Source of the DNA: Saccostrea echinata
Lineage: Eukaryota
Length of the DNA: 64,000 nucleotides
Reading direction: 5' to 3'
Assembly (NCBI RefSeq): GCF_033153115.1
Contig: NW_026889753.1
Coordinates: 1,860,001-1,924,000 of the forward strand
The translations under genes and the position numbers were made by a program. The notes beneath the pieces were generated by a model. The model made no database searches, was not told where the DNA came from, and saw only the letters and a program-made list of their open reading frames with translations. Of the stretch, positions 47,488-50,400 are shown in pieces; positions within the stretch are counted from its first letter, which is position 1; every line of letters begins with the position of its first letter.

Positions 47488-50400
47488 TTACATGAATAGA
47501 CCACCTACAAGTAAAAATAAAATTCTATCAGGAGCGACAGAATCATTTTCATTACATGAATAAGAAGCTATAATAAAATTTAAATACAGGTATAATCTTT
47601 TAAGGTATGTTGAAAATTATGGCAGAAAATTCTGGTATACTTCAGCAGTGGTCATTTTTAATTCATACCTGTAACTTCAATTGTGGCACCAGTTATATAG
47701 CTGCTCTTGTCTGATGCTAGAAAGGCACAAGTATTTGCTATTTCTACAAAAGAAAGCTCATTGTTAAGAAATTAAGTCACAGAAGTTAAAGTTACCAGTC
47801 ATGTGATACTTAATAACCACACTGGGTTATGGATCTCACAGCATACATTCAACATACATGTACTATATTGTCTTGCAGGCCATCAAAATTTTGAAGTAAA
47901 TCTGGCAAAAGATACTAAACTTTCCCTACTTACTAGTATGTGTACTTTAAATGAATTTGTCCAAGTTTCAAAAGTTATTTGTCGAGCATTTCACATAAAC
48001 TACTTTAAAAAAGCCCAGTATGATTGCAGTTGAGTCTATTTTATACCTTCTGGGTTACCAATGCGCCCAAGTGGGATCAACAATTTGGTCATTTGCATCA
48101 GGTGTTCTGGGACAACATCTGTCATAGGGGTCTCAATAAACCCAGGTAAAACAGCATTCACTCTGATGTTAAACCTGTAAATGGAATTCAAAATACATGT
48201 ATAAAATCATTGTATTAAAATGTGTACTTCTTTTATTGTTAATAAATAAGCACATAAATATGTTTATCCAAAAGTAAAATCATTTTTAGAAAATCATTTT
48301 TGGGAATATCAAACACCGTAATAGACATATCTTTAATAGCTAGTTGACTTATCTAAAACAGTTCAGTAAAGGCTCATTGTTCATATGTTAAAAAAAAAAA
48401 ACTTGTCATTTTAAAAATTGTGACCAAATACTTACTTTCCCATTTCTTTGGCCATGGATTTTGTAAGCCCTATGACTCCAGCTTTTGAGGCAGCATAATT
48501 TGTTTGTCCAATATTTCCTGTCTAAATTACACATGTAACACTTTAATTATCATAACTATTGGGGGGAAAATGCAACAGAGCAAAATTGCATAGTACTAAT
48601 TCACTGAAATCATAACTAATATGCACCTGGTTACGGCAAAGTTCATGCATTAACACACATATTTATGCAATAGTTATGATAGATTACTAAAGACAAAAGT
48701 AAGTGCCTATAATCATTTATCAATTTCAAGGTCAAATATAAAGACCAAGGGAAACTAAATGTACATGAAAATGACACTAGTAATCAGAATAAGTCACAAA
48801 CAGAAATAAGCATGTCTAATTAACCAATACTTCAGTCCAATATTTAGGCCATATGGTAAAACTCCAGTGGTGGTATATTATGTTTCACAATTGGCAAACA
48901 ATGATGTCTATATGTATTTCTTTACTTTTAATATTTTTGATATTGTGCCTACGTCAGGAAAAACTACACCTTTTTTTAATAAATTTTTTCACCTTAGTCA
49001 TGTGCAGTGTGCCATATATCACCATTAGCTTTTTTCTTGTAAAGCAGTAATTCAATAAAATAAAATCACCAAGATATCTGTATTATTTATTATGTGTTTG
49101 CATTTCTTTTTAATATTCATGTAAGAGAGACAAGATTGTGCTTCTCATTGGATTTGAACCCCAGACCTCTGGCAAGCCAGTCCAGTCCTCTACCAGTCAA
49201 ACTAAAGGGTTTATCTAGTAGGGAGCCATGTATCATACACTACCATATTGTTCCTAGTGTCTAGAGAGAGACATGTTCAAATCTCCTTTAAACTGGCAAC
49301 ACCTGTGGGGCAAAGTTCTGGAGGCAATATCTTTAACCCACCAGAATAGAACTGGGTCCCAATGTGGGAGCAACACATAACAGAAACAGATTTGCCTCCA
49401 CTGGGCCTCTGGCATTCCAGTCCAGTGTTCTACTGATCAAGCTAAAGGGTTAACCCACTAGTCCACTACCACATTTACCCCAATCTAAAATCTGTCAATC
49501 ACCTATTATCATTCAATATGAAAGGAATGAGTGCCCCTCCAATGACTTTTTATTCCTTGACAAATACATATCTTTTTAAGAATCCTGCAAAAGTTAAATC
49601 TGTCACTTAAAAAAAGGTATTTTTCAATTATTCTAACTACCCTGAACACCTTACCCTGTTTTAAAATGTAAACTTCCTCTTGTAGACACTTCATGCAAAT
49701 CTAATAAGCAGCACTACCCCTTCCCAATTTTCTGAGTGCACTACACACTGGAATATGGCAAACACAGTACCTGGCAAGAACCTATCCTACAGATCAAGAT
49801 TCATAAAGTTTACTATTACAGTAATGGCAGATGCTTTAATTTTACCTTTCCCACAAGACTTGATATGTTTACGATGGAGCCAGGAACCTTGTCAGCCAAC
49901 ATTGCCTTACCCACTGCTCTGTTTAACAACCAAGTTCCCTGCAAAATAAGATAACCCCTCTGTTTAACAACCAAGTTCCCTGCAAAATAAGATAACCCCT
50001 CTGTTTAACAACCAAGTTCCTTACAAAAGAAGATAACCTTAATAAGGTTAATAATAGTAAGGACTGGACAGAAAAACAACTTTAAAAGACTTTGGTACAT
50101 TTTAGCCATTCTTTGTAAGTCAGACCAAGAATACATCAATTTCTGAAAAAATAAACACATGTACCTGACTGAAACCTGAATACATGTTATCAATTAATAC
50201 ACTTTCCCACTAACCTTGAGATTGACATCTATGACTTTGTCAAAGTCCTCTTCTGTGAGCTTCATCATTGTCCTGTCTCGAGTAATGCCAGCAGAATTTA
50301 CAGCTACATGTGGTGCTGATGAATACCTCTCTTTTATTTTACTTACTAGATCATTGACAGAGGCAGAGTTTGAAACATCACATGGGTATGTCTGATGATC

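What the first reader, a model, noticed from the sequence alone, without database searches (positions are those of the whole stretch)
49846..50038. Second splice-acceptor amplification in the neighbouring gene, out of frame
Seen: the intron/exon-4 junction of HSD17B8 is triplicated as a 41-bp unit. Only the last acceptor (exon start 49938) keeps the frame. The identical acceptor 41 nt upstream (exon start 49979) shifts frame and hits TAA within the exon. The most upstream copy has CAG changed to TAA. Inference: the spliceosome must skip an intact decoy acceptor or make an NMD substrate, so copy number could act as an expression rheostat or the allele is hypomorphic. Loss of the AG in one copy may reflect selection against decoys.
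Basis: partly seen in the sequence, partly recalled or inferred. Interest (0 to 1): 0.7.

Follow-up and report, generated by a model that had tools for sequence, protein, structure and literature searches.

The report
Triplicated splice acceptor in oyster HSD17B8
A 41-base piece covering the end of an intron and the start of exon 4 of an oyster metabolic gene (HSD17B8) is present three times, leaving spare splice signals; the cell likely uses the last, genuine one, as reported for similar repeats in lancelet and human genes, so this is likely an ordinary, tolerated duplication.

Summary
The triplication is real in the assembly (49916-50038, minus strand; unit = 18 intron + 23 exon bases). Only exon start 49938 gives the normal 246-aa enzyme, identical to the RefSeq model; 49979 gives a 132-aa product without its active site. 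Spliced contigs in 7 of 8 runs laid (3 studies) join 50215 to 49938, but none shows whether those animals carry the repeat, so skipping of the decoy in carriers is inferred, not shown. The closest precedents, amphioxus 'mirages' and human CBS 844ins68, use the exon-side copy. As in CBS, G runs lie between the identical sites. The rheostat idea has no support. Selection against decoys is weak: copy 1 keeps a shifted AAG acceptor and copy 2 is intact. Junction-spanning repeats are not enriched genome-wide (2 of 63 arrays outside the window, 2.3 expected), so two in neighbouring genes fits chance. This scan noted the same repeat type before in mussel, urchin, octopod and elsewhere in this genome. 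Verdict: new member of a known kind, likely tolerated, with a small leak to decay possible.

The parts
49916..50038 (-). 41-bp tandem triplication across the intron 3 / exon 4 junction of HSD17B8 (18 intron + 23 exon bases a unit)
49998..50038 (-). copy 1, at the ancestral position, next to the unique intron; three substitutions in its intron part; CAG is now TAA, leaving an AAG acceptor (exon start 50019, stop at 50007)
49957..49997 (-). copy 2, intact decoy acceptor (exon start 49979; frameshift, TAA at 49925-49923, 132-aa product)
49916..49956 (-). copy 3, exon-side acceptor (exon start 49938), the one that gives the 246-aa protein
49955..49958 (-). GGGG run at the copy 2/3 joint, between the two identical acceptors (a twin starts at 49999); candidate silencer by analogy with CBS, untested
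   Evidence: analogy
50047..50053 (-). best branch-point-like motif (7 of 7, A at 50048), 28 nt before copy 1's exon start; likely the ancestral branch point
   Evidence: simple motif score
49846..49938 (-). HSD17B8 exon 4 (93 nt, phase 0)
49939..50214 (-). intron 3 (276 nt with the two extra units; 194 without)
50215..50402 (-). HSD17B8 exon 3
47400..52882 (-). HSD17B8-like gene, coding part of 8 exons (lower bound approximate, inside the last exon); joined translation identical to RefSeq XP_061170129.1; single locus in G000
44148..44418 (+). neighbouring 30-bp x9 in-frame acceptor array in the last exon of CFAP157 (context, not this finding)

Best explanation
The intron 3 / exon 4 boundary of this oyster's HSD17B8 gene is present in three tandem 41-bp copies, and splicing likely goes to the last, exon-side copy, so the two upstream copies would be removed with the intron and normal protein made. 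Inferred history: a local duplication (slippage or unequal crossing-over) made two copies; the upstream one, now intronic, gathered three substitutions and lost its AG; a later expansion made copies 2 and 3 identical. Inferred choice of site: copies 2 and 3 have the same sequence from -41 to +22, so splice-site strength and the -26 branch motif cannot tell them apart; closeness to the exon-4 donor and exon body (exon definition), perhaps helped by the G runs between the two sites, would. Any RNA spliced at 49979 or 50019 carries an early stop and would likely be destroyed by nonsense-mediated decay.
For: Shown: only 49938 gives the 246-aa protein, identical to the RefSeq model whose listed contig length equals that of G000:C4. 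11 of 11 oyster proteins aligned (of 76 hits) have no insertion at this junction. Spliced contigs in 7 of 8 runs laid, from 3 studies, join 50215 to 49938; the eighth (X3) ends inside exon 4. The gene is single-locus in G000. Copy 1 sits at the ancestral position and cannot give protein, so this allele can work only through a downstream copy, and it lasted long enough to gather three changes (inference). In the neighbour CFAP157, where all nine copies are in frame, the RefSeq model also uses the last copy (an annotation). Precedents: CBS 844ins68 uses the distal site, promoted by G runs between the sites (PMC1802585, PMC2630376); mirages do not disturb splicing (PMC3087553, PMC3902484). Background: 2 of 63 arrays outside the window get an exon-start call against 2.3 expected.
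Against: No run is shown to carry the triplication, so the contigs may all come from alleles without it, and contigs drop rare forms. The RefSeq choice could be forced by frame. The best branch motif (50048) lies before copy 1, and a scanning choice from it would reach 50019 or 49979 first, both stop-containing. The intron is short (276 nt), where intron definition may apply (recalled). Junction repeats can leak or harm: pseudo-donors are used in human 6-16 and CBS intron 13 (PMC1557585), and a 403-bp FGG donor duplication causes disease (PMC9052919 abstract). Nonsense-mediated decay in oysters is assumed, not tested.
Confidence: 0.68

Rival explanations
1. Leaky or hypomorphic allele: after the latest expansion a sizeable share of transcripts splice at 49979 (or 50019), are destroyed, and this haplotype makes less enzyme; it persists as ordinary genetic load, masked by the other allele.
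For: 49979 scores the same as 49938 (11.7) and 50019 scores 6.8, inside the range of known sites. The strongest branch motif is upstream of all copies. Leaks are known at donor repeats and harm at FGG. Copies 2 and 3 are identical, so this state may be recent and little tested by selection.
Against: No contig in 8 runs uses 49979 (weak). The closest acceptor precedents show clean distal use. A low-depth X3 contig set matches the window's 3' haplotype with 0 differences over three UTR pieces, so that haplotype is likely transcribed to stable RNA, but it does not reach the junction.
Confidence: 0.17
2. Assembly artefact: the repeat, or its third copy, was made by the assembler or by polishing.
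For: No read or contig crossing the acceptor region as DNA was available. Copies 2 and 3 are identical.
Against: Copy 1 is diverged and could not be a working allele alone. Contigs of 12-53 Mb suggest long reads (inference). A 25-bp duplication 2.9 kb away in the same gene is matched without a gap by an X3 contig and is missing in X4 and X8, so short duplications in this assembly can be true polymorphisms (one contig, depth 3.7, and X3 may not be independent of the assembly).
Confidence: 0.07
3. Rescue: the ancestral acceptor was killed first (G>A at -1), and a duplication, perhaps by unequal crossing-over with a working allele, brought back a functional acceptor, as the CBS insertion cancels c.833C.
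For: The dead AG is in the copy next to the unique intron; all three differences lie in the 18-nt intron part and none in the first 22 exon bases. CBS precedent for cancelling an upstream defect.
Against: Neutral decay after duplication gives the same picture; counting the joint base, 3 of 4 differences in the intron part has a chance of about 0.2 (hand calculation). A null allele is a small target for such an event (inference).
Confidence: 0.05
4. Selected expression rheostat: copy number of decoy acceptors tunes how much HSD17B8 RNA goes to decay, and the dead AG records selection.
For: The anatomy would allow it: an intact out-of-frame decoy with a stop 77 nt before the exon end. A second acceptor array lies in the next gene.
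Against: No use of the decoy seen, no copy-number data, no enrichment of junction arrays; copy 1 is still a possible acceptor.
Confidence: 0.03

Closest known systems
Amphioxus 'mirage' repeats (Adh3, troponin C, globins BflGb6/BflGb9, PGBD5); PMC3087553 and PMC3902484, passages read
   Same: Short tandem copies of an intron/exon boundary; unit inside the reported 10-160 bp range; some copies keep the splice signal and some lose it; the boundary copy is the diverged one.
   Different: Only three copies, in a mollusc; normal splicing in carriers and length polymorphism are reported for mirages but not shown here.
Human CBS 844ins68; seen through passages of PMC1802585 and PMC2630376; the primary papers (Romano 2002, Tsai 1996) were not held
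   Same: 3' splice site and exon start duplicated in tandem; two identical acceptors; G runs between them; the upstream copy carries a damaging change that is removed with the intron.
   Different: 41 bp x3 against 68 bp x2; here the change in the upstream copy is in the AG, not a missense in the exon part; distal use and hnRNP H binding are not tested here.
Human F7 intron 7 37-bp VNTR and related donor minisatellites (6-16, CBS intron 13, LMNB2, PDGF); PMC1557585, passages read
   Same: Identical splice sites repeated into the intron; the exon-side site is the one mainly used.
   Different: Those are donors; two of the five leak to pseudo-sites.
[quoted passage not shown]
   Same: Duplicated junction with competing identical sites.
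   Different: 403 bp, donor side, and harmful: the counter-example.

Membership tests
Mirage (junction-spanning tandem repeat) | Tandem unit spans an intron/exon boundary | tested here: met
   18 intron + 23 exon bases, three copies; exon confirmed by spliced contigs
Mirage (junction-spanning tandem repeat) | Short unit (10-160 bp in the amphioxus cases) | tested here: met
   41 bp; range
Mirage (junction-spanning tandem repeat) | Many but not all copies keep the splice signal | tested here: met
   Copies 2 and 3 keep CAG; copy 1 reads TAA
Mirage (junction-spanning tandem repeat) | Regular splicing is not disturbed | tested here: inconclusive
   7 of 8 runs show the normal joint, genotype unknown
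Mirage (junction-spanning tandem repeat) | Copy number varies between haplotypes | not testable with these tools
   No genomic reads or second haplotype over intron 3
CBS 844ins68-type duplicated acceptor | Two identical 3' splice sites in tandem | tested here: met
   49979 and 49938, same score 11.7 and same flanks
CBS 844ins68-type duplicated acceptor | G runs between the two sites | tested here: met
   GGG at 49980 and GGGG at 49958; presence only
CBS 844ins68-type duplicated acceptor | Distal site selected in carriers | tested here: inconclusive
   As above
CBS 844ins68-type duplicated acceptor | G runs bind hnRNP H and silence the proximal site | not testable with these tools
   Needs minigene mutation or knock-down
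Regulated splicing-to-decay switch (rheostat) | Alternative site gives an early stop more than about 50 nt before a downstream junction (rule recalled) | tested here: met
   Stop ends 77 nt before the end of exon 4, with four introns downstream
Regulated splicing-to-decay switch (rheostat) | The alternative site is used in vivo | tested here: inconclusive
   0 of 8 runs show it; contigs cannot show absence
Regulated splicing-to-decay switch (rheostat) | Use is regulated or conserved across species | not testable with these tools
   No related genomes held for G000
HSD17B8 (short-chain dehydrogenase) | adh_short domain with catalytic Ser and YxxxK; likeness to named HSD17B8 | tested here: met
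   Pfam PF13561/PF00106 on exons; identical to RefSeq 'estradiol 17-beta-dehydrogenase 8-like'; motif names recalled; activity not tested

The most novel reading that the evidence does not exclude
The duplication built its own silencer: the one unexplained G at each copy joint creates a GGGG run that, as in human CBS 844ins68, shuts off the upstream twin through hnRNP H/F, and each added unit sets a small leak to decay. The allele would then be a natural copy-number dial on a single-copy mitochondrial enzyme subunit, possibly born as the rescue of a dead acceptor, and a ready test of how identical 3' splice sites are told apart in a mollusc.
Probability: 0.07. Interest if true: 0.45.

Novelty: new member of a known kind. 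Interest (0 to 1): 0.13.

Why it matters
As read, it matters little: one more junction-spanning repeat, of which this genome likely holds hundreds by chance (extrapolated). Its use is as a small natural test case: two acceptors identical from -41 to +22 isolate what picks the exon-side site, a question worked out for human CBS and F7 but not found in print for oysters (0 papers). If the allele leaked, it would lower a subunit of the mitochondrial 3-ketoacyl-ACP reductase, whose partner CBR4 is essential in mice (bioRxiv 10.64898/2026.07.13.738135, abstract).

Tried and rejected
RNA structure hiding the decoy: whole-region folds pair copy 2's pyrimidine tract and free copy 3's (0.12 against 0.94-0.96 unpaired), but a 200-nt fold shows no difference (0.65, 0.62) and five local settings disagree in direction (3 favour copy 3, 2 copy 2), so it is not used. 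No listed run is on record as RNA and none holds half of the words; 8 of 10 listed runs were laid (X7, X9 were not). No contig covers intron 3 near the acceptor in any of the 8: the depth in that bin equals the spliced contig alone; this is no evidence either way. In one search the joints table was filled by a high-copy repeat in intron 2 (124 rows not shown), so the joint is read from the pieces table; one search lists all six joints. X3 stops 38 nt into exon 4; no conclusion drawn. Exact 22-base exon pattern in metagenome contigs: 0 hits. A genome-wide 'acceptor amplification' process: a first run gave 4 of 37 arrays with calls against 0.8-2.0 expected, two being the window's own; the larger run gave 2 of 63 outside the window against 2.3, one of them a coding repeat and one weak; rejected. 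The exon caller is crude, trained on 14-15 of the window's own sites, and 19 of 87 rows were dropped as repeats of the same unit. Search for VNTRs with splice acceptors gave 4 unrelated listings; the species paper search gave listings only, none read. Romano 2002 and Tsai 1996 were not held. No supplements were read; amphioxus alignments in the supplements of PMC3087553 could bear on the comparison.

Full report
What is there. The window is G000:C4:1860001-1924000 of a 923-Mb genome. Exon 3 of the minus-strand gene is 100% identical to a RefSeq 'estradiol 17-beta-dehydrogenase 8-like' protein of the rock oyster Saccostrea echinata. The eight exons joined through 49938 give exactly that 246-aa protein. 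DNA and protein searches each find one locus in G000. TRF reports a 41-bp unit in 3.0 copies at 49917-50038, far beyond shuffles (60 of 60 against 29-35). The unit is the last 18 bases of intron 3 plus the first 23 of exon 4. Copies 2 and 3 are identical but for the last base. Copy 1 differs at unit positions 10, 16 and 18, all intronic, turning CAG into TAA.

What each acceptor would give. From the donor at 50214: 49938 gives 246 aa; 49979 gives 132 aa, stopping 77 nt before the exon end and lacking the catalytic Ser and YxxxK motif; 50019, the AAG left by the change in copy 1, gives 118 aa; the weak AGs at 49959 and 49998 are open and add 7 or 20 residues. A matrix from 14 other acceptors of the window scores 49979 and 49938 at 11.7, 50019 at 6.8 and the two weak AGs at 2.4 and -0.3; known sites score 2.5-10.5 left out one at a time. 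AAG acceptors are plausible here: two exons of the neighbouring gene start after AAG, and its joined translation equals its RefSeq model. The best branch-like motif is at 50048, 28 nt before copy 1; copies 2 and 3 each have the same 6-of-7 motif at -26. The base at both copy joints is G where the flanks offer A or C, creating GGGG runs at 49999 and 49958.

What RNA shows. Ten runs were listed, none on record as RNA; eight were laid, all as contigs. In X1, X2, X5 and X6 one contig runs from exon 3 straight into exon 4 at 49938 (pieces table). X4, X8 and X10 show the joint 49937-50214 with CT..AC ends. X3 ends inside exon 4. That is 7 of 8 runs and 3 studies. No contig uses another acceptor or covers the end of intron 3. 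Two limits: contigs drop rare forms, and nothing shows whether those animals carry the repeat. The runs hold several haplotypes (0-3 differences in exon 4 and exon 5 in organism A and B runs). The data therefore fix the normal junction but do not test decoy skipping.

Is the repeat real? Not shown by raw reads. Indirectly: copy 1 is diverged and could not work alone; and a 25-bp duplication in the same gene's 3' region (46987-47036) is matched gap-free by an X3 contig and missing in X4 and X8, so such duplications in this assembly can be real polymorphisms. I put artefact at 0.07.

Are two acceptor repeats in neighbouring genes more than chance? In 1.8 Mb of G000 outside the window, TRF found 63 distinct near-perfect arrays of period 20-100 (87 rows with the window, 68 after merging repeated units). 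A crude exon caller marked 2 of 63, against 2.3 expected from 2,520 random placements; one is a coding repeat, the other weak. In the window 2 of 5 are marked at a random rate of 0.045 each. That gives about 0.02 for two or more, or 0.17 for one more once the first is given (hand calculation), and the caller was trained on this window. At about 36 arrays per Mb the genome would hold some 34,000, and hundreds to about a thousand would span an acceptor by chance (extrapolation). No special process is needed.

How it likely works. Shown: anatomy, reading frames, the normal junction in the species. Inferred: origin by local duplication, decay of the freed upstream copy, a later expansion, use of the exon-side copy, decay of stray RNA. 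Copy 1 lies at the ancestral position yet is dead, so the allele can make protein only through a downstream copy; three accumulated changes suggest that it was tolerated for some time. Because copies 2 and 3 match from -41 to +22, the choice must come from further out: the exon body and donor behind copy 3, or the G run that lies on the exon side of copy 2 only. In CFAP157 next door all nine copies are in frame, and the RefSeq model and a transcript-derived relative (P0078) carry one copy. Against clean skipping: the strongest branch motif precedes all copies, the intron is short, and leaks or harm are known at other junction repeats. Folding gave no stable answer.

Comparison with what is known. 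'Mirages' are tandem repeats of intron/exon boundaries in amphioxus Adh3, troponin C, globins and PGBD5, reported not to disturb splicing and to vary in length (PMC3087553, passages; PMC3902484, one passage). I took this name from earlier notes of the scan and checked it in the papers. Human CBS 844ins68 duplicates a 3' splice site; the distal site is used, G runs between the sites promote this, and a mutation in the upstream copy is cancelled (PMC1802585 and PMC2630376, passages; primary papers not held). F7 intron 7 and four other donor minisatellites mostly use the exon-side site, two with leaks (PMC1557585, passages). An FGG donor duplication is harmful (PMC9052919, abstract). PMC3265369 (passages) concerns intron gain from exonic duplications and does not apply: the GT-to-AG distance inside the unit is under 20 nt. 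The sequence features of a mirage are met; silent splicing and polymorphism are untested. An oyster case was not found in print (0 papers, 2 amphioxus papers), but the scan holds 15 earlier notes with these words in at least 11 genomes (8 shown) and two junction repeats elsewhere in this genome; those are unchecked notes, not support.

Verdict. Observation confirmed with small corrections. Best reading: a tolerated junction-spanning tandem repeat, 0.68; leaky allele 0.17; artefact 0.07; rescue of a dead acceptor 0.05; selected rheostat 0.03. New member of a known kind; interest 0.13.

Noticed in passing
window 44148-44418 (+): 30-bp x9 array across the last acceptor of CFAP157; all copies in frame and stop-free (first copy would add 80 aa). 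The RefSeq model (P0077, 559 aa) uses the last copy; P0078 and P0079 also have one copy.
   Followed up: partly
window 53853-54956 (-): Intronless 368-aa ORF with TPR, CS and SGS domains (SGT1/SUGT1-like) about 1 kb upstream of HSD17B8 exon 1; lack of introns suggests a retrocopy (inference).
   Followed up: partly
window 46987-47036: 25-bp x2 duplication in the 3' region of HSD17B8 is polymorphic: present in an X3 contig, absent in X4 and X8.
   Followed up: yes
window 47450: The window has C where contigs of six runs (X1-X6) read A: a private variant or an assembly error.
   Followed up: no
window 41221 and 43267 (+): Two CFAP157 exons start after AAG rather than CAG or TAG; the joined translation equals the RefSeq model.
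   Followed up: partly
window 50722-52233: High-copy repeat or repeats in intron 2 of HSD17B8, with contig depths up to thousands of times that of the exons in all four runs.
   Followed up: no
L079:7073-7706: 53-bp x12 array ending about 32 nt before a strong donor-like site; weak exon-start calls inside the last unit; may be another junction array.
   Followed up: partly
L069:6910-9286: 62-bp x38 array whose unit holds both an acceptor-like and a donor-like motif; seen by eye only.
   Followed up: no
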